DNA of 64,000 bases, from contig MFBU01000007.1 in the NCBI GenBank assembly GCA_001775055.1, positions 1,683-65,682 on the forward strand. Reading direction: 5' to 3'. Within the stretch, counting starts at the first letter, position 1. Each line of letters begins with the position of its first letter. The notes under the pieces are model-generated. The model did no database searches. It was given only the letters and a program-made list of their open reading frames with translations, and was not told the origin of the DNA. The position numbers and the translations under genes were made by a program. This DNA is from Candidatus Curtissbacteria bacterium RIFCSPLOWO2_02_41_11 (GTDB lineage Bacteria > Patescibacteriota > Microgenomatia > Curtissbacterales > GWA2-41-24). Positions 11,848-20,955 of the stretch are shown piece by piece.

Positions 11848-12147
11848 ATGGCTGAAAGAAGAATCAGGACCGTCCCTCGAATACAAACAGTCGAACCAGA
11901 CCAAATACCAAATACTGTTGTAACGCCAAAAAGGACCCGAACAGTACCATTAATACGAACGGTTGAGCCAAAAAATAGAAAAATTATGACTACAAATGAA
12001 GGGACACCCCATGAAGTTAAACGCGAACCATTTCCGGAAAATATCCCTGATGAAATCCTCGATGATCCTGATATGCTCAGACCTTTTGATCCTGTTGTCT
12101 CTCCACCAATAACTTTTCGTGAACTTCTGGAAAGTTTAAACAGTTAG
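11848..12147 (+). CDS. hypothetical protein with internal tandem repeat ('RTVPRIQTVEP'/'RTVPLIRTVEP')
   Basis: 99-aa ORF divergent from VIT gene; no known domain. Confidence 0.25.
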   Translation: MAERRIRTVPRIQTVEPDQIPNTVVTPKRTRTVPLIRTVEPKNRKIMTTNEGTPHEVKREPFPENIPDEILDDPDMLRPFDPVVSPPITFRELLESLNS

Positions 12148-12401
12148 GGGTACTCTTGTTCTCCGGTTCCAATATTTTCCAAAATTATCGCCTTAGTCGG
12201 GCAAGACTCGGCAGCCAGTTTTATTGATTCGGGAGGATCTCCCGCCTCATCCAAAACTACGGCTTTATTTTCGCTATCCAGCGCAAAAGTTTTCATTGCC
12301 AATGCCACGCAAGAAGCCGCGCCAATGCAAAGGTTGCGATCAACTTTAATACGATATTTCTTTGTTTGATTGCTTTGTGTACTTGATTGATTATTGACCA
12401 T
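12144..12401 (-). CDS. small ferredoxin-like Fe-S protein
   Basis: 85 aa; 'CIGAASC' and 'ESCP' cysteine motifs; last gene of suf cluster. Confidence 0.5.
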   Translation of the reverse strand: MVNNQSSTQSNQTKKYRIKVDRNLCIGAASCVALAMKTFALDSENKAVVLDEAGDPPESIKLAAESCPTKAIILENIGTGEQEYP

Positions 12402-12434
12402 ACCGGTGTCTAGTTAAATTCTAAAGGTAAAATA

Positions 12435-12803
12435 CTAGTTTTTACTAGTCGCCAATTTTTTAATTGCTTCAAGCGGCAAAAAGGCACACTTTAATCTGGC
12501 TGGTGCAACTGGACCACCGAGTAATCCTAAAACATCCTTACCAGTTAATTTTGCTAAAAAAGAAATCGGCCTCCCCTTAATAAACTCCGAAAGGATTGAC
12601 GCTGAAGCAATGGAAATCGCACATCCGTTGCCGACAAATGAAACGCCAGCTACCTTATTATTCTTAATTTTAAAGTAAAACCGCACCTCATCACCACATA
12701 ATGGATTAATCTGGTCAATAACCAAATCGGCATCAGGCATTTCCCCAAAATTCAAAGGATTTTGCCAATGCTCAAGAATTTCCTCCCTGTAGATATCTGT
12801 CAT
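12435..12803 (-). CDS. sufU: SUF Fe-S cluster assembly scaffold SufU (NifU/IscU-like)
   Basis: 122 aa; 'NPLCGDEV' and 'GNGCAIS' conserved Cys motifs. Confidence 0.85.
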   Translation of the reverse strand: MTDIYREEILEHWQNPLNFGEMPDADLVIDQINPLCGDEVRFYFKIKNNKVAGVSFVGNGCAISIASASILSEFIKGRPISFLAKLTGKDVLGLLGGPVAPARLKCAFLPLEAIKKLATSKN

Positions 12804-12860
12804 CCTAATTCATCCTAATTTTAATAGTCCAAATTTATTCGAATATTCGCTCATTCGCAT

Positions 12861-14198
12861 CTAAATCTTAAAAGTTTTCTTAACCTTTAAAATTCCCTCC
12901 ACCAACCGATCTATCTCCTCTTTCGTATTGTAAATATAAAAACTCGCTCGCGCAGCCGATGCTATTCCTAAAAACTCCATCAAAGGCTGGGCGCAGTGAT
13001 GACCGGAGCGAATGGCAACTCCTTCCGAATCAAGAATCGAAGCCACATCATGGGCATGAATGTTGCTGACGTTAAACGAGACGACTCCAGCTCTTTTGTC
13101 ATCATCAAAACCACCTCTCTTGTCATCGCGAGCAAAGCGAAGCGATCTATTCTCGCTATTTTTAGATTGCTTCGTCGTCCCGATTGAATCGGGGTTCCTC
13201 GCAATGACATTTGAACGTGGTCCATAAATAATTACATCCGGAATCTTCGACAGTCTCTCAATCGCATACTTCGTCAGCTCAATCTCATGCTTCCTTATAT
13301 TATCCATCCCCAAAGCTTGTAGATAATCCACTGCTGCCCCAAGCCCCACGACTCCGGCCACATCAGGGGTCCCAGCCTCAAATTTCCAAGGCAAATCATT
13401 CCAAGAAGATTCATCAAGGGTAACTTTTGAGATCATCTCTCCTCCAAACAAAAAGGGCGGCATCTTTTCTAAAAGTTCGCGCCTTGCCCATAGAACTCCG
13501 ACTCCAGTTGGCCCCAGCATTTTATGTCCTGTGAATACATAAAAATCACAGCCGATTGAGCCGATATCAACCGGCATATGAGGAACAGCTTGCGCACCGT
13601 CAATCAGGATTTTCGCCCTCGGTGATTGTCGACGGACTATAGTCGACAGACTATCGACCTGATTAATTGTTCCAAGAACGTTTGAAACATGGAAGAAAGT
13701 AACAAGCTTCGTCTTTTTAGTTAAAGCTTTCTTAAAAGCAACTAAATCCAGCTCTCCATTTTCATCAACGGGAATTATTTTAAGAACTGCGCCGTTTTCC
13801 GCCGCCAATTGCTGCCAGACCACAAAATTCGAATGGTGCTCGGCAACCGTCAACACGATCTCATCTTCCTTATTTATATTGAGTCTTCCCCAAGCATAAG
13901 CGACTAAATTAATTGCCTCGGTCGCATTGCGAACAAAAATAATTTCGCTAACATCCCCGACTCCCAGAAATTTCGCAATCTTAGCTCTTGCTGTCTCATA
14001 AGCCTCCGTCGCCTCAACGCTAAGAGTGTGAATTCCCCTATGCACATTGGCATTATGACTTCGATAATAGTTAGTAATCGCCTCAATTACCTGCCTCGGC
14101 TTCTGTGAAGTCGCCGCATTATCCAAATAAACCAACGGATGGCCATTGACCTTGCGGCTAAGAATCGGAAAATCCCTACGAATCTTTGCAATATTCAT
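12861..14198 (-). CDS. sufS: cysteine desulfurase SufS (carries ~90-bp in-frame repeat insertion)
   Basis: 445 aa; 'LDNAATSQKP', PLP-lysine 'FTGHKMLGPTGVG', active-site 'RSGHHCAQP'; ~35 aa longer than typical SufS. Confidence 0.85.
   Translation of the reverse strand: MNIAKIRRDFPILSRKVNGHPLVYLDNAATSQKPRQVIEAITNYYRSHNANVHRGIHTLSVEATEAYETARAKIAKFLGVGDVSEIIFVRNATEAINLVAYAWGRLNINKEDEIVLTVAEHHSNFVVWQQLAAENGAVLKIIPVDENGELDLVAFKKALTKKTKLVTFFHVSNVLGTINQVDSLSTIVRRQSPRAKILIDGAQAVPHMPVDIGSIGCDFYVFTGHKMLGPTGVGVLWARRELLEKMPPFLFGGEMISKVTLDESSWNDLPWKFEAGTPDVAGVVGLGAAVDYLQALGMDNIRKHEIELTKYAIERLSKIPDVIIYGPRSNVIARNPDSIGTTKQSKNSENRSLRFARDDKRGGFDDDKRAGVVSFNVSNIHAHDVASILDSEGVAIRSGHHCAQPLMEFLGIASAARASFYIYNTKEEIDRLVEGILKVKKTFKI
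13121..13210. repeat. TIR-bounded element inserted in-frame in sufS ('cttgtcatcgcgag...ctcgcaatgacat')
   Basis: 12-bp terminal inverted repeats; encodes 'IARNPDSIGTTKQSKNSENRSLRFARDDKRGGFDDDKR'; internal 'cgcgagcaaagcgaagcgatc' related to other repeat families. Confidence 0.6.
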
Positions 14199-14230
14199 AA
14201 ACTACTTTTAAACCACCAAATACGATAAGC

Positions 14231-14374
14231 AGGCTTGAGGCATCCAAAAACATGACGCAGCCAACTTAGAATACCCAATAAATCACCTCTGAGTTTCGAT
14301 GCTGGCGGAGGCTTGAGCGAGGCGAAAAGGTCCTGACAATCAAATCAATAATTAGCCGAGCGTTTTTTGGATGC
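14231..14374. repeat. intergenic composite repeat with IR 'aggcttgaggcatccaaaaa' / 'tttttggatgcaaaagactgc'
   Basis: inverted repeat plus internal 'ggcggaggcttgagcgaggcgaaaaggtcctgaca' resembling the sufC/tkt element. Confidence 0.45.
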
Positions 14375-14387
14375 AAAAGACTGCAAT

Positions 14388-14696
14388 TCATCCTTCTACA
14401 AAAACATCTTCCCCTTCAACCGAAACTTGATACGTCTTTAGAGGTTCGGTGGCCGGCGGCAAAACAACCGCTCCGGTTTTGACATTAAACTGCGAACCGT
14501 GGCAAGTGCACTCAACAACATCACCATGGATTACATTACTGACATCCAGTTCACAATGCGCATGAGTGCAAATGTTGCTGGTGGCAAAAATCTGGCCGGC
14601 AATCTTAAACAAAGCTACCGGCTCTCCATTAACATCAACTTTTTTAAGCCCACCTTCGGCAACATCATTTACATTTGCAACTTTAATCTTGGCCAT
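14388..14696 (-). CDS. Rieske [2Fe-2S] ferredoxin-like protein
   Basis: 102 aa; 'CTHAHC' ... 'CTCHGSQF' Rieske motifs. Confidence 0.75.
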   Translation of the reverse strand: MAKIKVANVNDVAEGGLKKVDVNGEPVALFKIAGQIFATSNICTHAHCELDVSNVIHGDVVECTCHGSQFNVKTGAVVLPPATEPLKTYQVSVEGEDVFVEG

Positions 14697-14724
14697 TAAT
14701 TATCAACCTCCTTTCGGTCGGTAT

Positions 14725-14795
14725 TAATTTTCAATGAAATTTAAATTTTTAAAAATTGATTGAAAATTTCAAATTTCAAATTAAAAATTTTGACC
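14725..14795. repeat. family-F AT-rich repeat ('aatttcaaatttcaaattaaaaattt') copy 1
   Basis: ~70 nt similar to 17643-17742 and, inverted, 30950-31010. Confidence 0.55.
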
Positions 14796-15312
14796 CCGAT
14801 TTTAACTTCTCCCGTATCGGGTTAATAAATCCCTCAATCAGCAATTTTTCAGCCTCTTTTCGGCTCAATCCGCGACTCATCAAATAAAACAACATCTGCT
14901 CATCGACTTTACCGATAGTGGCTGCGTGTCCAGCCTTGACATCCGGCTCCAAAATCTCCAGGGCCGGTGTATCATCACCCATTTTAGCCTCATCAAACAA
15001 CAGCGCGTCAGACCGTAAATACGCATCTGCCCCTTTTGCACCCTTTTCGATTTTGACATCACCGCGGAATGAAAATGTCGATCTCCCCCTCAAAACCGCC
15101 CGCACATTAACATTAGATTTGGTATTGGGCGCAGCATGGGTAATATAAGCCTCGAGTGCTTTCTCCTCAACTCCTTTACCTAAGATCAACCCCACAACCT
15201 CCACACACGCACCTTCTCCTGCCAAAACAACTTCAAGTTTTTCTTCTAGGGTAACCAATCGAAGCGGTACTAACTCAGTCTGATTCTTATATAGAACTAA
15301 TTTCATAATCAA
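14776..15312 (-). CDS. sufD: SufD-like protein (C-terminal beta-helix/dimerisation part only)
   Basis: 178 aa; aligns with SufB/SufD core ('[34 protein letters not shown]'); lacks the usual N-terminal domain. Confidence 0.7.
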   Translation of the reverse strand: MIMKLVLYKNQTELVPLRLVTLEEKLEVVLAGEGACVEVVGLILGKGVEEKALEAYITHAAPNTKSNVNVRAVLRGRSTFSFRGDVKIEKGAKGADAYLRSDALLFDEAKMGDDTPALEILEPDVKAGHAATIGKVDEQMLFYLMSRGLSRKEAEKLLIEGFINPIREKLKSGSKFLI

Positions 15313-15659
15313 CCTCCTGTTAACATTTTTCTAAAATTACCAAAATCGTAGTTCGCTACCCATAAACAATTAACCATTTCATATACTAAAGAACTTAAAA
15401 ATTCTGGATCTTCATCAGTCCCAGGAGTTGTTAAGATAAAAATTCCTATGTTCTCGTTACTCAGTGCCATAAGTTCGTCAAATATCAAACCCATTTCAGC
15501 AGCCCTATCTCGTAATAACTCAAGAGGAATTTCCAGAGGAATAAAACCAGCTCCCTCAACTTCACCTAACCTCTCCATCAATCTCCCAAATTCTGGATCT
15601 AGTTCAAAAAAAGTTTTACGCACTAAATGTACGTAACTCGGCGTACCCTCCAACGTCAT
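15309..15659 (-). CDS. hypothetical acidic protein embedded in suf operon
   Basis: 116 aa; start/stop overlaps (ATGA-type) with neighbours; no known domain. Confidence 0.4.
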   Translation of the reverse strand: MTLEGTPSYVHLVRKTFFELDPEFGRLMERLGEVEGAGFIPLEIPLELLRDRAAEMGLIFDELMALSNENIGIFILTTPGTDEDPEFLSSLVYEMVNCLWVANYDFGNFRKMLTGG

Positions 15660-16234
15660 CCCACCGCTCCTTTCCTCCGACTCAAGCCATCAATAATTCT
15701 CTTTATAATTGGTGGATTCTTTTTGACTCTTAGACAAGGATAATCAATAAGATAACCTAGATTAAGCCTTTCACGAGCGTCCTTTTCTAAAGCGTCCCAG
15801 AGAGTCTGATCGTCACTAACTGCATATTCACCACTCACTTCTAAAACCCTATACCGAAAATCTAGCTCGATATCCAGCGGTTCTATAGAAAACAAGAATT
15901 TCCCGCTTTCAATTTCCTCTACGTTAATATCAAGGTCTGCTTCATTTTTCAAAATACCTCTTCTTTTCAATAAACCCGCAAGACTCAAATATGATAAGGG
16001 GTGCAGGAGTCTGCCTTTTACCCCACGCTCCCTAAATTTGCTAACCTCTTCCCAAGAAGAAATCTCTTTAATATCCAAAAAATCCTCTGGTACCTCAAAA
16101 CAACTGTCAGCAATTCTTAACACAGGCGGCCTACCCCCCTGATCCTCCCGAAATTCGATTGCGGGAATAGATCCAAGATAATCTTCGTATCTTAACTCAC
16201 CAAGATATCCTTCTTGTCGATTCTCGACAGTCAT
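15656..16234 (-). CDS. hypothetical acidic protein embedded in suf operon
   Basis: 192 aa; stop overlaps start of downstream gene, start overlaps sufB stop; no known domain. Confidence 0.4.
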   Translation of the reverse strand: MTVENRQEGYLGELRYEDYLGSIPAIEFREDQGGRPPVLRIADSCFEVPEDFLDIKEISSWEEVSKFRERGVKGRLLHPLSYLSLAGLLKRRGILKNEADLDINVEEIESGKFLFSIEPLDIELDFRYRVLEVSGEYAVSDDQTLWDALEKDARERLNLGYLIDYPCLRVKKNPPIIKRIIDGLSRRKGAVG

Positions 16235-17634
16235 TATCCTACTGCTCCTTCCATATTAAGTTGAATCAATCTGTTTAACTCCACCGCATATTCTAAGGGC
16301 AACTCCTTCACAATCGGCTCGATAAAGCCGTTTATAATTAAGGAAGTTGCTTCAACTTCAGTTAACCCCCGGCTCATTAAATAAAATAACTGATCCGCAT
16401 TAATCTTTGAAACTGCTGCCTCATGGCCAATGGTCACATTATCCTCATCAACCTGCATGGTCGGATAAGTATCGGATCGGCTCTTCTCATCCAAAATCAG
16501 CGCATCACAACGTACATTGCATTTAACTCTCTCTGCGCTTTTAATTACTTTTACCAAACCTCTATATGAGGTTCGACCTCCGCTGTGACTGACTGATTTT
16601 GAGATAATCTCACCGCTTGTCTCCGGCGCCAGAAATACCAGTTTGCCGCCCGCATCCTGATGTTGATTTTCCCCTGCCAGTGCCAAAGACAAAATCTCAC
16701 CGCGTGCTCCTCGACCGGTCAAATAACAAGATGGATACTTCATGGTAATTTTGCTGCCGATATTGCCGTCCACCCACTCCATAATCCCTTCTTCCTCCAC
16801 AAATGCCCGTTTGGTAACTAAGTTATAGACGTTGCTGGACCAGTTTTGAATGGTGGTATAGCGGCAACGCCCACCACGCTTTACAAAAATCTCCACTACT
16901 GCCGCATGCAAAGAATCAGTTGAATAAACAGGGGCCGTACAACCCTCAACATAATGCACATAAGCCCCCTCATCAATAATAATTAGCGTCCTTTCAAACT
17001 GGCCCATGTTAGCGGCGTTAATGCGAAAGTAAGCCTGAAGCGGAATCTCAACCGAAATACCCGGTGGTACATAAATAAAGGAACCTCCTGACCAAACGGC
17101 ACTATTTAATGCCGCAAATTTATTATCAGCTGGAGGAATTGCTTTGCCAAAATATTGCTTCACCAAATCACCATACTCTCGCAATCCCGAATCCATATCC
17201 AAAAAGACAACTCCTTTATCTTCCCATTGTTTTTGGAAAGAATGATAAACCGACTCACTTTCATATTGCGCCGTCACTCCGGCCAAAAACTTGCGTTCCG
17301 CCTCCGGAATACCAATGGCATCATAAGTATCTTTGATCTCCTTTGGTAGTTCCCCCCAAGATTTGGCTTGTCGATCAGTCGGCCTGATGTAGTAGTAGAT
17401 ATCGTCAAAATTAATAGTAGATAAATCCGCCCCCCATATGGGCATCTGCTTTGATTGGAAAATCGAGAGGGCCCGCAGCCTTTGCTCCCTCATCCACTCC
17501 GGCTCATTCTTAAATCCGGATATCTGACGCACAACATCAGCATCCAAACCCTTCTTGCTCTTAAAAACATACCTCTCCGGTTTGGCAAAACCGTATTTGT
17601 AATTAGTAATTGGTATTGATGCTCCGTTGGCCAT
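16234..17634 (-). CDS. sufB: Fe-S cluster assembly protein SufB
   Basis: 466 aa; strong SufB identity throughout (e.g. '[16 protein letters not shown]', '[18 protein letters not shown]', '[16 protein letters not shown]'). Confidence 0.9.
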
Positions 17635-17642
17635 AGTTATTA

Positions 17643-17742
17643 AATTTTCAATTTATAATTCTCAATTTTCATTGAAATTCAAATGTTTAAATTTTAAAAA
17701 TTTAGTATTGATTAAAAATTTTAAATTTCAAATTAAAAATTT
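17643..17742. repeat. family-F AT-rich repeat copy 2
   Basis: see 14725-14795. Confidence 0.55.
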
Positions 17743-18635
17743 ATCGCTTGATAACCTTTATTTTCTATTTCCCTTGCAAGCGATAATCTTCCCGATTTAA
17801 CAATCTTCCCCTCCACCATCACATGCACAAAATCAGGTTTTAAGTATTTGAGGATTCGAGCGTAATGGGTTATTAGAAGGACGGATGAACGCGGATTATT
17901 AAATCTAAACTGATTAATCGCGGATGAGACAAGCTTAAGTCCATCAACATCAAGTCCAGAGTCAATTTCGTCCAAGATCACCAATTTCGGCGAAAGGGCC
18001 ATCATTTGCAAAATTTCACTTCTTTTTTTCTCTCCCCCGGAAAAACCTTCATTTAAAGAGCGCCGCAGGAAATCATCAGAAAGTCTTAAAGACGAAGCGT
18101 ATTCAAGTAGTTCCTGACGAAATGCTGAAAGACTGCGGGTGGCAGTGGCGGAGGGGGTCCCATCGAGCGCCCGCAGACCAACCAAGGATTGTTGATTGCG
18201 TTTCGAATTAGACTTGGTCGAGGACGTCGGATGGGACGAGCCGCTGACAGGACCCGAAATCGATTGCTTTGCTCTTCTTAAAACATTAAACACGCTGACC
18301 CCCGGCACCTCTACTGGATGCTGAAATCCCAAAAAAATCCCCAATTTTGCCCGTTTGTCCGGAGTTAATTTTGTAATATCCTCTCCGTTAAATGTTATCG
18401 GTGAACTGCTTGCCCCTCGAAGCTTTAGCGGAGTGGGGTCAATTGTGAATTGCGGGGCACCCGCAATTACCTGTGCCAGCGTGCTTTTGCCACTGCCATT
18501 TGGCCCCATCAACACATGAAGTTCGCCAGCCTTGACCTCAAGGTCAATCCCTTTTAAGATCTCCTGCTTGCCCGCCATAACTTTAGTGGAGGTGGAACCT
18601 TTGATTGAAACTTTTAAATTGTTAATTTTAAGCAC
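17733..18635 (-). CDS. sufC: Fe-S cluster assembly ATPase SufC (with ~128-bp in-frame repeat insertion)
   Basis: Walker A 'GPNGSGKST', ABC signature 'GFSGGEKKR', Walker B 'LVILDEIDSGLD', H-loop 'ITHY'; likely GTG start at 18635 preceded by AAGGAG (ORF track extends to 18695). Confidence 0.9.
   Translation of the reverse strand: MLKINNLKVSIKGSTSTKVMAGKQEILKGIDLEVKAGELHVLMGPNGSGKSTLAQVIAGAPQFTIDPTPLKLRGASSSPITFNGEDITKLTPDKRAKLGIFLGFQHPVEVPGVSVFNVLRRAKQSISGPVSGSSHPTSSTKSNSKRNQQSLVGLRALDGTPSATATRSLSAFRQELLEYASSLRLSDDFLRRSLNEGFSGGEKKRSEILQMMALSPKLVILDEIDSGLDVDGLKLVSSAINQFRFNNPRSSVLLITHYARILKYLKPDFVHVMVEGKIVKSGRLSLAREIENKGYQAINF
18133..18260. repeat. dispersed element inserted in-frame in sufC (same family and frame as 27346-27484 in tkt)
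   Basis: shares 'tgcgggtggcagtgg...gagg' start and 'ctgacaggacccgaaat' end with tkt copy; encodes 'ISGPVSGSSHPTSS...SATATRS'. Confidence 0.7.
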
Positions 18636-18811
18636 CTTCTCTCTCCTTTCCTTTACCTGCCTCTGCCCAAGCACGTGTTCCCTGAATTTCCGCAAGCGGA
18701 CGCAAAGTTAAACCCGTTCCTTCTTCAAGCCTGCGTCTTGACTGACCCCAAACCATTAAAGCTATCCGTCTCTGTGCCGCCTGTTGTTGACAAAGTGTAT
18801 TTTCAATTCTT

Positions 18812-19216
18812 CTATTCACCATCCACCCCCTTTGCACCTACCAAATCCGCCACTGTTTTCTTTCCTAAGGTTGCCTCCATTTGTTTTTTCATCTGCTGCC
18901 ACATTTCGCCGGCACCACAGGTGCACTCGTGACCTTCTTCAAAACATTTGCCTTCGATTAAGTCCCCTTCCAAAACCTTTAAAACATCAAGAAGTTTTAT
19001 TTCATCTGATTCCCTAGCCAAAGTGTAGCCCCCAGAAATACCTTCCTTAGAAGATAAAATTCCGGCCTTTTTAAGCTCATTGGCCACTTGGGATAAAAAT
19101 TTAGGGGATATTTGATTTTTCTGGGCTATTGCAGAAATTGGAATGAGTTTTTTTGATCGGGCAAGACTGGAAAGAAGCATCAATCCGTAATCAGCTTTTT
19201 GGGAAAGTCGAAACAT
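18812..19216 (-). CDS. Rrf2 family transcriptional regulator (IscR/SufR-like)
   Basis: 134 aa; N-terminal wHTH 'ADYGLMLLSSLAR', C-terminal Cys cluster 'CFEEGHECTCG'; directly upstream of sufCB.. Confidence 0.8.
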   Translation of the reverse strand: MFRLSQKADYGLMLLSSLARSKKLIPISAIAQKNQISPKFLSQVANELKKAGILSSKEGISGGYTLARESDEIKLLDVLKVLEGDLIEGKCFEEGHECTCGAGEMWQQMKKQMEATLGKKTVADLVGAKGVDGE

Positions 19217-19268
19217 AACTACTACTACTTTAGTGGAAGTTTAAAGGAAAAAAATACTGGTGTCAACT

Positions 19269-20327
19269 TTATTTTATGGGGACTTCTTTTCCCTTAAAAA
19301 CTTCATCATAGCCTTGTCTGAAAGAACAGACTAAAATTCCCGACTGCTCCCCCCTCGCTAAACCCGCATCTACATATCTACCCATCCAAACCATAGTATC
19401 TGCTGCTTCTATATAATCGGCTTCCCGCTCAATCCGCAATTCAATAGGTGAAACAGTATCCAGATCAACAATTCGACAATCCAAAGTTATGTTATGCGGT
19501 GTCAAATAACCATGCTTCAACCCCATGTTATGCATAGTCGCAACATTTTCTCCTAAAGTTTTACCAAACCACCCTAAAAATTCCTCGTTTGTAAACTCTC
19601 TTGCCTCCTCCGCCTCAACCATTCTCTTAGCATCGCTAACTAAGAGTCTATCCAAGAAAGGGTAATGATAAGGATCTTGAATCCTAGATCTAACTCCGAA
19701 GGCTCTCACCAAAATTACAGGTTTGAAACCGAAGTCTATAATATTATTTTCGATTGCCTCTACCAATTTCCAATTTTCTCGGTCAAGTCCTCTGTGAACA
19801 ACAAGTTCTTCCAAGCCAATAATTGCTAAGACTTTTGGAGTTCTAATACCAGCAAATAACAATTCCTCACTTACTTGCCATTCGTAAAATGCAGAATCTT
19901 CATCTAAAAGCCCTTCTCTTCTACCATCTTCTCTAATATGACCTGGGCCACTAACTCCCCATGGGCCGACAGAACCTATTCCTTTTAAATCAACATCCCT
20001 ATAAATTCTTCCTTGTTTATCACAAAATAGGACCCTGCCAAGAATCGCCGTACGGCCATGACCCTCGTAAGTTTCGAGATTCAAACAACCAGAAATTCTA
20101 CCAGAAGCATCGTGAACTAAACACCTGGCAAAAACTCCAAGGGTAGAAGCTTTTCCCTCCACCAGTGAAAAAGGGGTGTAAACATCCCCATTGACAGCTA
20201 GAACCTTATTTCTGACCGGAGTAAAGACAGTTAAATAATCGCCCAATCTTTGGGCAACAAGTTGTTCCAACTTTTGTCCTTCCCCTACAGGAAGCCTGTT
20301 AATTAATCCTATTTCAGATTCAACCAT
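19269..20327 (-). CDS. hypothetical protein with protein-kinase-like (RIO/Kdo-kinase/APH-like) C-terminal region, catalytic Asp replaced
   Basis: 352 aa; 'LKHGYLTPHNITL...RIVDLDT' resembles kinase catalytic loop 'HGDLxxxN' + 'IDF/DLD' metal-binding motif but with D->Y. Confidence 0.3.
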   Translation of the reverse strand: MVESEIGLINRLPVGEGQKLEQLVAQRLGDYLTVFTPVRNKVLAVNGDVYTPFSLVEGKASTLGVFARCLVHDASGRISGCLNLETYEGHGRTAILGRVLFCDKQGRIYRDVDLKGIGSVGPWGVSGPGHIREDGRREGLLDEDSAFYEWQVSEELLFAGIRTPKVLAIIGLEELVVHRGLDRENWKLVEAIENNIIDFGFKPVILVRAFGVRSRIQDPYHYPFLDRLLVSDAKRMVEAEEAREFTNEEFLGWFGKTLGENVATMHNMGLKHGYLTPHNITLDCRIVDLDTVSPIELRIEREADYIEAADTMVWMGRYVDAGLARGEQSGILVCSFRQGYDEVFKGKEVPIK

Positions 20328-20408: not shown

Positions 20409-20666
20409 TCAATACGTCTTTGAAGTGCGTCTCACTATCGAAGTAACAATCACCTTTTTTACCTCAATATAATAAAAAATCCGATAATCACCCACTCTTA
20501 GACGATAACCCTCTGTCAATTTTTTAATATGCTTGCCATCTGCTATATAGGGCTTGGTTGATAACTTGCCAAGCATTGATTCCAGAATTTTGTCTTGGAT
20601 TGATTTTGGAAATGATCTTAGCTGTTTTAAAGCGGATTTTTTGACAAAAACTTCAAACTTTTCCAC
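20409..20666 (-). CDS. type II toxin, RelE/ParE family
   Basis: 85 aa; 'YRLRVGDYRIFYYIE...VIVTSIVRRTSKTY' typical ParE/RelE; overlaps upstream antitoxin by 14 bp. Confidence 0.75.
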   Translation of the reverse strand: MEKFEVFVKKSALKQLRSFPKSIQDKILESMLGKLSTKPYIADGKHIKKLTEGYRLRVGDYRIFYYIEVKKVIVTSIVRRTSKTY

Positions 20667-20916
20667 TGATTATATCTTTGAGGAAAAAAGCTTTTTCTTT
20701 GGCAGTTCTCTTTTTTGATTTGGTCATTTCAAGCTCTTCCCATAGAGCCTCGTTTTCCTCCATTATCGATTGATAACGGTCTGGAGATAAAATGACAGAA
20801 ACTTTGTCGGTATTTTTGGTAACCAAAACGACTTCGTTTTTTCTGCGAATTTGATCAAATACTCTTTTGGCGTCGCGTCTTATATCGGTGATACTTTTCA
20901 AGACCGGTAATTGCAT
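20653..20916 (-). CDS. type II antitoxin, Phd/YefM family
   Basis: start taken at ATG 20916 (ORF-track Met at 20934 is TTG inside the promoter); 'DKVSVILSPDRYQSIMEENEAL' Phd/YefM-like. Confidence 0.7.
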   Translation of the reverse strand: MQLPVLKSITDIRRDAKRVFDQIRRKNEVVLVTKNTDKVSVILSPDRYQSIMEENEALWEELEMTKSKKRTAKEKAFFLKDIISGKV

Positions 20917-20924
20917 AACAAAAT

Positions 20925-20955
20925 TATTATACAAATTTATCTACAAATTTGTCAA
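20925..20955 (-). promoter_or_regulatory. sigma70-like promoter (TTGACA-17-TGTATAAT) for phd/parE, with direct/palindromic 'acaaatttgt' repeats (probable antitoxin operator)
   Basis: read on minus strand: 'attgacaaatttgtagataaatttgtataat'; near-leaderless ATG 9 nt downstream. Confidence 0.55.

What the first reader, a model, noticed from the sequence alone, without database searches (positions are those of the whole stretch)
15309..16234. Two unknown, translationally coupled genes wedged between sufB and sufD
The suf locus order (minus strand) is Rrf2 regulator, sufC, sufB, ORF192, ORF116, sufD (truncated, 178 aa), Rieske protein, sufS, sufU, ferredoxin.

ORF192 and ORF116 overlap their neighbours by 1-4 bp (ATGA/TGA-ATG coupling). 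Both are acidic, Cys-poor, and match no SUF component I recognise (not SufA, SufT or SufE).

SufD here lacks its N-terminal domain, so one or both ORFs could be a split or replaced SufD N-domain, a lineage-specific Fe-S assembly accessory, or a selfish insert riding an essential operon.
Basis: partly seen in the sequence, partly recalled or inferred. Interest (0 to 1): 0.6.

Follow-up and report, generated by a model that had tools for sequence, protein, structure and literature searches.

The report
Variable gene cassettes between sufB and sufD
The two unknown genes are real, but they are not missing pieces of SufD: they are two interchangeable gene cassettes at an insertion hotspot at the sufB/sufD junction, which related Curtissbacteria leave empty or fill with quite different genes.

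Summary
ORF192 (15656-16234, minus strand) and ORF116 (15309-15659, minus strand) lie between sufB and a short sufD. They join their neighbours by TAATG and ATGA overlaps. Both are acidic and Cys-poor and match no Pfam, NCBIfam, PHROG, PADLOC or PDB entry.

The window is from a Candidatus Curtissbacteria genome. I compared 41 non-identical relatives of this locus.
- The ~176-aa SufD is conserved in all of them, including five where sufB runs straight into sufD.
- The sufB-to-sufD gap ranges from -3 to 2535 bp.
- It holds 0-6 co-oriented, mostly ATGA-coupled ORFs from at least 35 unrelated families, including AHSA1, an alpha/beta hydrolase and a GIY-YIG nuclease.
- ORF192 belongs to a small family (six divergent lineages) seen only in this gap.
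- ORF116 occurs only in this strain and is a probable distant member of a second gap-only family.

Cassettes carry copies of the flanking gene ends. A G[AST]VG* ending occurs in 32/40 sufB, 16/80 gap ORFs and 0/925 other ORFs. ORF192's last 18 nt match the sufB end at 14/18.

The split-SufD reading is rejected (hhalign probability 0.3% or less; alpha/beta model). The best reading is mobile cargo inserted with duplication of gene ends, which preserves translational coupling. The proteins' biochemical function is unknown.

The parts
16234..17634 (-). sufB (466 aa, no intein). Its last codons ...NMEGAVG plus TAA form the left edge of the slot.
   Evidence: TIGR01980 E 5e-213. PF01458 and PF19295.
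16234..16254 (-). sufB 3' joint (ATGGAAGGAGCAGTAGGA TAA, overlapping the ORF192 ATG). This is the sequence that recurs at the ends of cassettes.
   Evidence: Sequence read. Motif statistics.
15656..16234 (-). ORF192, cassette 1. It belongs to a small family found only in this slot (six divergent lineages).
   Evidence: define the family. Searches show that every member with readable context sits between sufB and sufD. AF2 model: pLDDT 70.8, pTM 0.70. No fold or sequence match. dN/dS below 1. GC3 0.337.
15656..15676 (-). Copy of the sufB 3' end at the end of ORF192 (AGGAAAGGAGCGGTGGGA TGA, coding ...RKGAVG*). It supplies the Shine-Dalgarno sequence and the ATGA start for the next gene.
   Evidence: 14/18 nt identical to the sufB end, against a maximum of 12 among 1582 other ORF ends. 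In the window, only sufB and ORF192 of 174 ORFs end in G[AST]VG.
15309..15659 (-). ORF116, cassette 2. It is strain-specific and a probable distant member of the small 'WV.D....F..lF' slot family (cluster c3).
   Evidence: No homologue besides itself in 5.8 billion clusters. Absent from the nearest relative, L001/L050, which has sufB, ORF193, sufD. hhalign to c3: probability 88%, E 3e-6. An HMM built without ORF116 ranks it first of 404 window ORFs, E 0.0045. GC3 0.282.
14776..15306 (-). Short sufD (176 aa from ATG 15306), the right edge of the slot. It keeps only the C-terminal part of the SufBD core.
   Evidence: PF01458 positions 95-232 of 232, E 1e-44. TIGR01981 positions 122-267. The same short form is present in all related loci.
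17733..19216 (-). Upstream operon members: sufC (17733-18695) and the Rrf2 regulator (18812-19216).
12144..14696 (-). Downstream operon members: Rieske protein (14388-14696), sufS (12861-14198), sufU (12435-12803) and ferredoxin (12144-12401).

Best explanation
ORF192 and ORF116 are two independent accessory gene cassettes. They occupy a hypervariable insertion slot that exists in Curtissbacteria exactly at the translationally coupled sufB-ATGA-sufD joint. They are neither fragments of SufD nor conserved parts of the SUF machine.

Shown:
- The ancestral or empty state is sufB abutting a short sufD.
- Relatives carry 0-6 co-oriented ORFs there, from many unrelated families in shuffled combinations.
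- Cassettes carry copies of the sufB 3' end (...GGAGCGGTGGGATGA, coding ...GAVG*) or of the first ~38 nt of sufD.
- ORF192 ends in such a copy, and ORF116 sits immediately after it.

Inferred:
- Cassettes enter by recombination inside the last codons of sufB or the first codons of sufD, with duplication or replacement of the gene end. This resembles endonuclease-associated mobile ORFs in fungal mitochondria. In some relatives a GIY-YIG nuclease gene sits first in the slot with a recoded sufB end in front of it.
- The duplicated end gives each cassette a portable Shine-Dalgarno plus ATGA module. Every insertion therefore keeps sufD translationally coupled, and only such insertions survive in an essential operon.
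- ORF192 encodes a folded protein under purifying selection whose biochemical function is unknown. ORF116 is a very recent, AT-rich addition with less evidence of constraint.
For: Slot census.
- 55 loci have both slot edges, giving 41 non-identical slots.
- Slot length runs from -3 to 2535 bp. Five slots are empty and 36 are occupied.
- The 80 slot ORFs fall into at least 35 clusters.
- Families include AHSA1 (PF08327), an alpha/beta hydrolase and a GIY-YIG nuclease.
- 91% of occupied slot DNA is operon-sense ORF, and 40/80 ORF starts are ATGA overlaps.

Copies of gene ends.
- A G[AST]VG* terminus occurs in 32/40 sufB, 16/80 slot ORFs and 0/925 other ORFs.
- The nucleotide motif of the sufB end occurs at 0.56 per kb inside slots against 0.01 per kb outside.
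- The sufD 5' motif occurs at 0.37 per kb inside against 0.006 per kb outside.
- Explicit triple copies of the sufD 5' end are present in L019 and L026.
- The ORF192 end matches the sufB end at 14/18 nt, against a background maximum of 12 in 1582 ORF ends.

ORF192 family.
- Five hits among 1.84 billion representatives.
- Every member with readable context lies between sufB and sufD, with different neighbours each time.

ORF116.
- Absent from all other loci.
- An indel relative to the closest relative.

Composition: GC3 is 0.337 for ORF192 and 0.282 for ORF116, against 0.43-0.44 for sufB, sufD and sufS.

Selection, window versus L050: ORF192 dN 0.39, dS 3.15; sufB dN 0.077, dS 1.22.

GIY-YIG loci: sufB ends are recoded (IALNMENSVG), while the nuclease ORF ends in the native ...REGSVG*.

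Mechanistic precedent: C-terminal duplications made by mobile endonuclease ORFs (PMC3630166).
Against: - No nuclease, integrase or transposase is present in the window's own slot, and no GIY-YIG gene occurs anywhere in the 64 kb.
- The three GIY-YIG elements are as diverged from one another as the sufB genes next to them. Recent homing is therefore not shown, and the nuclease may not drive most insertions.
- The end copies are no closer to the resident sufB than to sufB of other genomes. They could be old, or partly maintained by selection for the Shine-Dalgarno and coupling signal rather than being pure insertion footprints.
- Families restricted to this slot, translated within an essential Fe-S operon and under purifying selection, are also what a fast-evolving SUF-associated factor would look like.
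- The proteins' functions remain untested. The ORF116 model was unusable (pLDDT 49.8).
Confidence: 0.75

Rival explanations
1. Split or replaced SufD N-terminal domain: ORF192 and/or ORF116 supply in trans the part that the 176-aa SufD lacks.
For: - The lengths add up: 192 + 116 + 176 = 484 aa, close to the 454-codon full-length SufD reading frame recovered from L020.
- The genes lie directly upstream of sufD and are translationally coupled to it.
Against: - The short SufD is conserved in all 55 loci, five of them with nothing between sufB and sufD.
- hhalign of both families against SufB and a full-length SufD gives probability 0.3% or less.
- There is no PF19295 or PF01458 hit at E<=1.
- The ORF192 model is alpha/beta with long helices, not a beta-helix.
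- The position holds unrelated families in other genomes.
Confidence: 0.03
2. Fast-evolving, lineage-specific SUF accessory or modulator proteins. The slot families (ORF192 family, c3/ORF116 family, c0) would act on the SufBC2D scaffold, for example by docking through the SufB-like ...GAVG C-terminal tail, and strains would swap variants.
For: - The ORF192 and c3 families are found only in this slot.
- The genes are co-transcribed with, and translationally coupled inside, the suf operon.
- ORF192 is under purifying selection.
- 16/80 slot proteins share the SufB C-terminal residues.
Against: - Five genomes have an empty slot.
- The content includes genes with no plausible SUF role: a GIY-YIG nuclease, an alpha/beta hydrolase, a membrane protein and AHSA1.
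- Restriction to the slot is equally expected from a site-specific insertion mechanism.
- GC3 is atypical for the operon.
- The shared tail is conserved at the DNA level together with the stop and start joint, which points to a DNA footprint.
Confidence: 0.15
3. Spacer ORFs with no protein function. The inserted DNA would merely be kept open and coupled so that ribosomes reach sufD, and the products would be irrelevant. This is most plausible for ORF116.
For: - ORF116 has no homologue, the lowest GC3 (0.282) and a low-confidence fold.
- Decayed cassettes and pseudogene fragments exist in other slots: L005, L008 and L011, L044.
Against: - The ORF192 family keeps 16 invariant residues at 27-52% identity and gives a pTM 0.70 model, with dN/dS below 1.
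- ORF116 aligns over 73-78 residues to the c3 family, including its C-terminal W..D..F..F motif.
Confidence: 0.1
4. Conflict-system cargo: immunity, antitoxin or anti-phage genes accumulating in a variable island, as in polyimmunity loci.
For: - The slot shows hypervariable, combinatorial arrays of small acidic proteins.
- A nuclease gene is present in some slots.
Against: - Five slot proteins tested (ORF192, ORF116 and one representative each of the c0, c3 and c4 families) gave no PADLOC hit and no significant PHROG hit.
- Pfam scans found no SUKH/SMI1 or other immunity family.
- The ORF192 and ORF116 scans of viral contigs found no relatives.
- Pfam scans of the suf operon genes in the window found no toxin domain.
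Confidence: 0.07

Closest known systems
Mobile endonuclease ORFs (mORFs) of fungal mitochondria that insert at the 3' end of atp6, atp9, cox2 or nad3 with a carboxy-terminal duplication (Allomyces macrogynus atp6; Glomus sp.; PMC3630166)
   Same: - Insertion occurs inside the last codons of a conserved essential gene.
- The host gene keeps an intact, recoded end, and the displaced native end persists downstream.
- In the three GIY-YIG loci the nuclease ORF follows the recoded sufB end and itself finishes with the native ...EGSVG*.
   Different: - This is a bacterial chromosome, and the duplication is only about 12-21 nt.
- Most slots, including the window's, hold non-nuclease cargo and no endonuclease.
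- Cassettes stack into arrays.
- The 5' end of the downstream gene is duplicated as well.
- Mobility is not demonstrated.
Free-standing homing endonuclease genes of T4-like phages (seg and mob genes; intronless homing between conserved genes; PMC2988022, PMC2790892)
   Same: - Optional genes are wedged between conserved genes.
- Spread would occur by double-strand-break repair with co-conversion of flanking DNA.
- Variation is presence or absence among close relatives.
   Different: - ORF192 and ORF116 have no nuclease domain.
- No cleavage site has been mapped.
- The host is a cellular CPR genome, not a phage.
Integron gene-cassette arrays
   Same: - One fixed site accumulates a co-oriented, promoterless, shuffled array of small unrelated ORFs.
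- The ORFs are expressed from an upstream promoter, and each is bounded by a recurring short sequence.
   Different: - No IntI-type integrase lies in the suf operon genes, and I saw no attC-like imperfect palindromes. The rest of the window was not scanned for an integrase.
- The recurring boundary is a copy of the host gene's end.
- The array sits inside an essential operon and must transmit translation to sufD.
Genomic islands that integrate into the 3' end of tRNA or tmRNA genes and bring a replacement 3' end (own knowledge)
   Same: The element restores the target gene's end and leaves the displaced end as a direct repeat at the far side.
   Different: - The target here is a protein-coding gene.
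- The cassettes are single genes rather than islands.
- No tyrosine or serine recombinase was seen.
Canonical SufBC2D scaffold with full-length SufD (about 420-440 aa; TIGR01981, PF01458, PF19295)
   Same: The operon context and the C-terminal core of SufD are conserved.
   Different: - SufD here is 176 aa and lacks the N-terminal two-thirds in the whole clade.
- The extra ORFs do not resemble that missing part.

Membership tests
SufD / SufB N-terminal region (PF19295 SufBD_N; N-terminal turns of PF01458) | Sequence or profile similarity to the N-terminal region or beta-helix of SufB or SufD | tested here: not met
   No Pfam or NCBIfam hit at E<=1. hhalign against the SufB alignment and a full-length SufD gives probability 0.3% or less.
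SufD / SufB N-terminal region (PF19295 SufBD_N; N-terminal turns of PF01458) | Right-handed parallel beta-helix fold | tested here: not met
   The ORF192 AF2 model (pTM 0.70) is mixed alpha/beta with 8 helices. No Foldseek match to any PDB chain (best E 0.23). The ORF116 model was too poor to judge.
SufD / SufB N-terminal region (PF19295 SufBD_N; N-terminal turns of PF01458) | Conserved co-occurrence with the short SufD across the clade | tested here: not met
   The short SufD is present in all 55 loci. The ORF192 family is in a handful of them and ORF116 in none besides this strain. Five slots are empty.
Known SUF accessory proteins (SufA, SufE, SufT/DUF59, SufU) | Match to the corresponding Pfam or NCBIfam models | tested here: not met
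   No hits for ORF192 or ORF116 at E<=1. SufU is encoded separately at 12435-12803.
Homing endonuclease genes (GIY-YIG, LAGLIDADG, HNH) | Nuclease catalytic domain in the ORF itself | tested here: not met
   No nuclease domain in ORF192 or ORF116. GIY-YIG (PF01541, E 1.6e-14) is present in the same slot of L035, L043 and L060 only. None was found in the window.
mORF-type insertion with host-gene terminal duplication | Insertion at the end of a conserved gene, with a second copy of that gene's terminus downstream of the insert | tested here: met
   ORF192 ends in ...KGAVG* and matches the sufB end at 14/18 nt. Duplicated sufD 5' ends are shown.
mORF-type insertion with host-gene terminal duplication | Endonuclease encoded by the element and responsible for its mobility | tested here: not met
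   Absent from the window's slot. Present in 3 of 41 related slots, plus one remnant. Cleavage activity cannot be tested with these tools.
Integron cassette array | IntI integrase next to attI, and attC imperfect inverted repeats bounding each cassette | tested here: not met
   The operon genes are all assigned and none is an integrase. No attC-like inverted repeat lies at the cassette ends in 14300-17700. The rest of the window was not scanned for integrases.
ORF192 family (this work, cluster c1) | About 190-207 aa with a conserved core (Y16, Y19, G21, R35, P49, L76, H78-P79, L85, F113, G135, L145-W146, L149-E150), located between sufB and sufD | tested here: met
   hmmsearch E-values of 3e-13 to 2e-6 for four distant members. 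Alignment. Genomic contexts.
c3 slot family (this work; about 80-113 aa, C-terminal 'WV.D.E..KF..LF') | Profile similarity across the alpha/beta core and the C-terminal motif | tested here: inconclusive
   hhalign probability 88%, E 3e-6, 73 columns. An independent HMM ranks ORF116 first of 404 window ORFs, but at only 12.3 bits, E 0.0045.
Anti-phage defence or immunity protein families | Match to PADLOC or PHROG models, or to Pfam immunity families | tested here: not met
   No PADLOC or PHROG hit for ORF192 or ORF116. No Pfam hit.

The most novel reading that the evidence does not exclude
The sufB/sufD joint of Curtissbacteria would be a previously undescribed kind of integrase-free cassette-capture site embedded in an essential operon. 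Mobile single-gene cassettes would home to a translationally coupled stop-start joint and carry a portable copy of the upstream gene's last codons (Shine-Dalgarno, GAVG and ATGA). This would let them stack indefinitely without breaking sufD expression. In the boldest form, the shared SufB-like C-terminal tail would also let some cassette proteins, including ORF192, dock on the SUF complex and tune Fe-S assembly strain by strain.
Probability: 0.2. Interest if true: 0.8.

Novelty: new variant of a known kind. Interest (0 to 1): 0.55.

Why it matters
It replaces an attractive but wrong idea, a split SufD, with a testable one. An essential and otherwise highly conserved Fe-S operon in a genome-reduced CPR bacterium tolerates, and repeatedly acquires, foreign genes at one precise stop-start joint.

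The duplicated gene ends show how an insertion can be neutral for an operon that depends on translational coupling. They also give a simple sequence signature (...GGAGCGGTGGGATGA and ATGAACCAGATTAT) for finding such slots elsewhere.

With the SufB inteins and the GIY-YIG genes in relatives, sufB emerges as a magnet for homing-type elements in this clade.

The slot is also a source of compact protein families that occur nowhere else and whose function is open.

Finally, annotators should treat the 176-aa SufD as the native form in this lineage, not as a truncation artefact.

Tried and rejected
- Pfam, NCBIfam, PHROG and PADLOC scans of both ORFs gave nothing.
- PDB sequence profiles gave nothing better than E 0.42.
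- Foldseek of the ORF192 model against PDB and BFVD gave nothing better than E 0.09, TM <=0.29.
- The ORF116 AF2 model had pLDDT 49.8 and was not searched.
- Viral contig scans found no relatives.
- Rfam found no RNA family at 12000-19500.
- Promoter and terminator scans were not above the shuffled expectation.
- Split SufD was rejected by hhalign and by the locus census.
- Recent homing of the GIY-YIG element was tested and not supported. The three copies are about 75-80% identical, the same as the adjacent sufB.
- Fresh local duplication of the resident sufB end was tested and not supported. The copies are no closer to their own sufB than to foreign ones.
- No paper on a CPR sufB/sufD slot was found.
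Full report
**1. What is in the window**

The minus strand of 12144-19216 carries a complete suf operon. The order is Rrf2 regulator, sufC, sufB (16234-17634), ORF192 (15656-16234), ORF116 (15309-15659), a short sufD, a Rieske protein, sufS, sufU and a ferredoxin (ORFs; Pfam; NCBIfam).

The junctions read directly from the sequence:
- sufB stop to ORF192 start is TAATG, a 1-nt overlap.
- ORF192 stop to ORF116 start is ATGA, a 4-nt overlap.
- The ORF116 stop TGA is followed 2 nt later by the sufD ATG at 15306, which has an AGGAGG 6 nt upstream.

SufD matches only positions 95-232 of the 232-position SUFBD_core model.

ORF192 has pI 4.94 and 2 Cys. ORF116 has pI 4.25 and 1 Cys. Neither hits any Pfam or NCBIfam model.

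The proteins are recorded in public data as hypothetical proteins of Candidatus Curtissbacteria bacterium RIFCSPHIGHO2_12_41_11.

**2. Homologues**

ORF192 has one close relative, P0002, at 52% identity. A full HMMER pass over 1.84 billion representatives found four more distant relatives of about 200 aa, at E 3e-13 to 2e-6.

ORF116 has no relative at all by direct search.

Every ORF192 relative with readable context lies in the same place:
- L001/L050: sufB, ORF193, sufD, with no ORF116.
- L025/L054: sufB, P0007, AHSA1.
- L026/L027: P0005 is the fifth of six ORFs between sufB and sufD.
- L024: P0004 is preceded by ...EAVG* and followed by a sufD-like MKQIILGK.
- L028: P0006 is followed by sufD.

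**3. The slot**

I used the short SufD to fetch related loci from genomes and metagenomes. This gave 55 loci with both the sufB end and the sufD start, and 41 non-identical slots.
- The ~170-216-aa SufD is present in all of them.
- The distance from the sufB end to the sufD start ranges from -3 bp (L032) and 3 bp (L051) to 2535 bp (L026). In L051 the sufB stop and sufD start share an ATGA; in L032 they share a TTGA.
- Five slots are empty and 36 hold one to six ORFs.
- 91% of occupied slot DNA is operon-sense ORF.
- 40 of 80 ORF starts are ATGA overlaps with the preceding stop.

The 80 ORFs fall into at least 35 sequence clusters:
- a helical family of about 150 aa, c0, with 17 members;
- the ORF192 family;
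- AHSA1/SRPBCC (PF08327);
- a small alpha/beta family, c3;
- a 220-284-aa family, c4;
- a GIY-YIG nuclease (PF01541, E 1.6e-14);
- an alpha/beta hydrolase;
- a membrane protein and many singletons.

Families recur in different orders and with different neighbours, so the units are modular.

ORF116 aligns to the c3 family. hhalign gives probability 88%, E 3e-6, over 73 columns. An HMM built without ORF116 ranks it first of 404 window ORFs, at E 0.0045. I treat it as a probable but not proven member. All c3 members with known context are also in the slot.

**4. Copies of the flanking gene ends**

Many cassette ORFs end like sufB itself. The terminus G[AST]VG* occurs in 32/40 sufB genes, 16/80 slot ORFs and 0/925 other ORFs of the same loci. 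In the window it occurs only in sufB and ORF192, out of 174 ORFs.

At the nucleotide level:
- GGAGCGGTGGGATGA (3 mismatches or fewer) occurs at 0.56 per kb in slots against 0.01 per kb outside.
- The sufD start ATGAACCAGATTAT (2 mismatches or fewer) occurs at 0.37 per kb in slots against 0.006 per kb outside.

L019 and L026 each hold three copies of the first ~38 nt of sufD. Two follow cassettes and the third begins the real gene. L016 keeps seven sufB-terminal residues...LNMEGAV*.

ORF192's last 18 nt match the sufB end at 14/18. The maximum among 1582 other ORF ends is 12.

In the nearest relative, ORF193 ends ...KAVG* and runs straight into sufD. In the window, ORF116 sits exactly at that joint and is a clean indel in the pairwise alignment.

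These copies are no closer to the resident sufB than to foreign ones. They are therefore either old or travel with the cassettes.

**5. Link to homing elements**

In L035, L043 and L060 a ~100-aa GIY-YIG gene is the first slot gene. There the otherwise invariant sufB end IQLNMEG[AS]VG is recoded to IALNMENSVG or IALNMDNAIG, and the nuclease ORF itself ends with the native ...REGSVG*.

L044 has an NMENAVG end and a decayed GIY-YIG gene. L048 (NMENAVG) and L010/L045 (NMEDAIG) also have altered ends, but I did not check them for GIY-YIG remnants.

This is the architecture described for mobile endonuclease ORFs in fungal mitochondria: an inserted C-terminus, then the endonuclease, then the displaced native C-terminus (PMC3630166).

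SufB of relatives also carries one or two inteins with LAGLIDADG domains.

However, the three GIY-YIG copies are as diverged as their sufB neighbours. The window has no GIY-YIG gene. A nuclease-driven mechanism is therefore an inference, not a demonstration.

**6. What the two proteins are not, and what can be said of them**

Profile-profile comparison with SufB and with a full-length SufD gives probability 0.3% or less.

The ORF192 model was built from a 6-sequence alignment and has pLDDT 70.8 and pTM 0.70. It is alpha/beta, not a beta-helix. It has no match in PDB or BFVD. PDB sequence profiles, PHROGs and PADLOC give nothing. Scans of viral contigs found no relatives.

ORF192 is a real protein under constraint. 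It keeps 16 invariant residues across 27-52% identity. Against L050, dN is 0.39 and dS is at least 1.2-3.2. That is about five times faster than sufB at non-synonymous sites.

GC3 is 0.337 for ORF192 and 0.282 for ORF116, against 0.43-0.44 for the suf genes. This is consistent with foreign or young DNA.

The ORF116 model was unusable (pLDDT 49.8).

**7. Interpretation**

The best-supported account is that the sufB-ATGA-sufD joint is a cassette hotspot, and that ORF192 and ORF116 are two of its many interchangeable occupants.

The duplicated sufB end gives each cassette the same Shine-Dalgarno, spacer and ATGA module that couples sufB to sufD. Insertions therefore do not interrupt translation of sufD. 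This step is inferred from the anatomy.

The split-SufD idea is rejected. A SUF-modulating role is not excluded, because the families are slot-specific, selected and co-expressed with suf. It is less likely given the empty slots and the heterogeneous cargo.

The biochemical function of both proteins remains unknown.

**8. Novelty**

I found no paper describing this slot. The mechanism resembles fungal mORFs, free-standing phage homing endonuclease genes (one search lists PMC2988022 and PMC2790892) and, formally, integron arrays. What appears not to be described is the combination of:
- a bacterial chromosome;
- a target that is a stop-start joint;
- both flanking gene ends duplicated;
- stacked non-nuclease cargo inside an essential operon.

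I rate it a new variant of a known kind and of moderate interest.

Noticed in passing
L006 2697-5261; L011 1686-5348; L013 2685-5144: SufB of related Curtissbacteria carries one intein (L006, and L013 by its length of 819 aa) or two (L011, 1221 aa), with Hint/Intein_splicing and LAGLIDADG_3 domains. They lie at about residues 225-232 and 293 of the window's numbering. The window's SufB has no intein.
   Followed up: partly
L035 1467-1772; L043 1207-1509; L060 229-567; remnant at L044 414-521: Small GIY-YIG nuclease genes lie immediately after sufB, with a recoded sufB C-terminus in front (IALNMENSVG or IALNMDNAIG). The native ...REGSVG* forms the nuclease's own end. None was found in the window.
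   Followed up: yes
window 13060-13210 (minus strand, inside sufS): SufS carries an in-frame, charged, low-complexity insert (...NPDSIGTTKQSKNSENRSLRFARDDKRGGFDDDKRAG...) that splits the Aminotran_5 match into two stretches. It looks like the repeat-derived in-frame inserts common in CPR genes. No second long copy occurs in the window.
   Followed up: partly
window 17733-18695 (minus strand, sufC): SufC has a Ser/Thr-rich insert of about 45 aa (...SGPVSGSSHPTSSTKSNSKRNQQSLVGLRALDGTPSATATRSLSAF...) inside the ABC domain. Its start is uncertain: gene callers give 300 aa plus a separate 63-aa ORF upstream, against 320 aa from a TTG.
   Followed up: no
L071 26-2443; L026 60-1511: Other suf junctions also vary between relatives. 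Extra genes (Sod_Fe_C, RNase_H_2-like, EVE-domain and unknown ORFs) lie between Rrf2 and sufC. L014 and L015 have two tandem Rieske genes after sufD.
   Followed up: no
L019 4797, 5253, 5887; L026 4978, 5434, 7052; L060 1387-1518: The first ~38-130 nt of sufD (ATGAACCAnATTATTTTACAAAAAGACGA...) are repeated after individual cassettes. Some insertions therefore occurred inside the sufD 5' end, not at the sufB end.
   Followed up: yes
window 15309-15330; L019 5242-5256; L026 5423-5437: ORF116 ends ...KMLTGG*, and two c0-family cassettes end ...EMLTGI*, with similar DNA (ATGYTWACAGGR). This may be a second type of boundary remnant or a coincidence.
   Followed up: no
window 15616-15636 (minus strand): A terminator-like hairpin followed by a T-run lies just inside the 5' end of ORF116. 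Terminator-like sites in the region are not significantly above the shuffled expectation (12 against 7.0 +/- 3.0).
   Followed up: no
window 20409-20934 (minus strand): A small overlapping gene pair lies upstream of the suf operon. One member matches PhdYeFM_antitox, and the pair looks like a type II toxin-antitoxin module.
   Followed up: no
15 related loci, e.g. L036 4513-4989; L017 3113-3586; L034 2301-2861: The commonest slot family (c0, 17 members, about 140-190 aa, sequence looks mainly helical) has no Pfam hit. Of the PHROG and PADLOC libraries, only the L036 member was scanned, also without a hit. Like the ORF192 family, it was seen only in this slot.
   Followed up: partly
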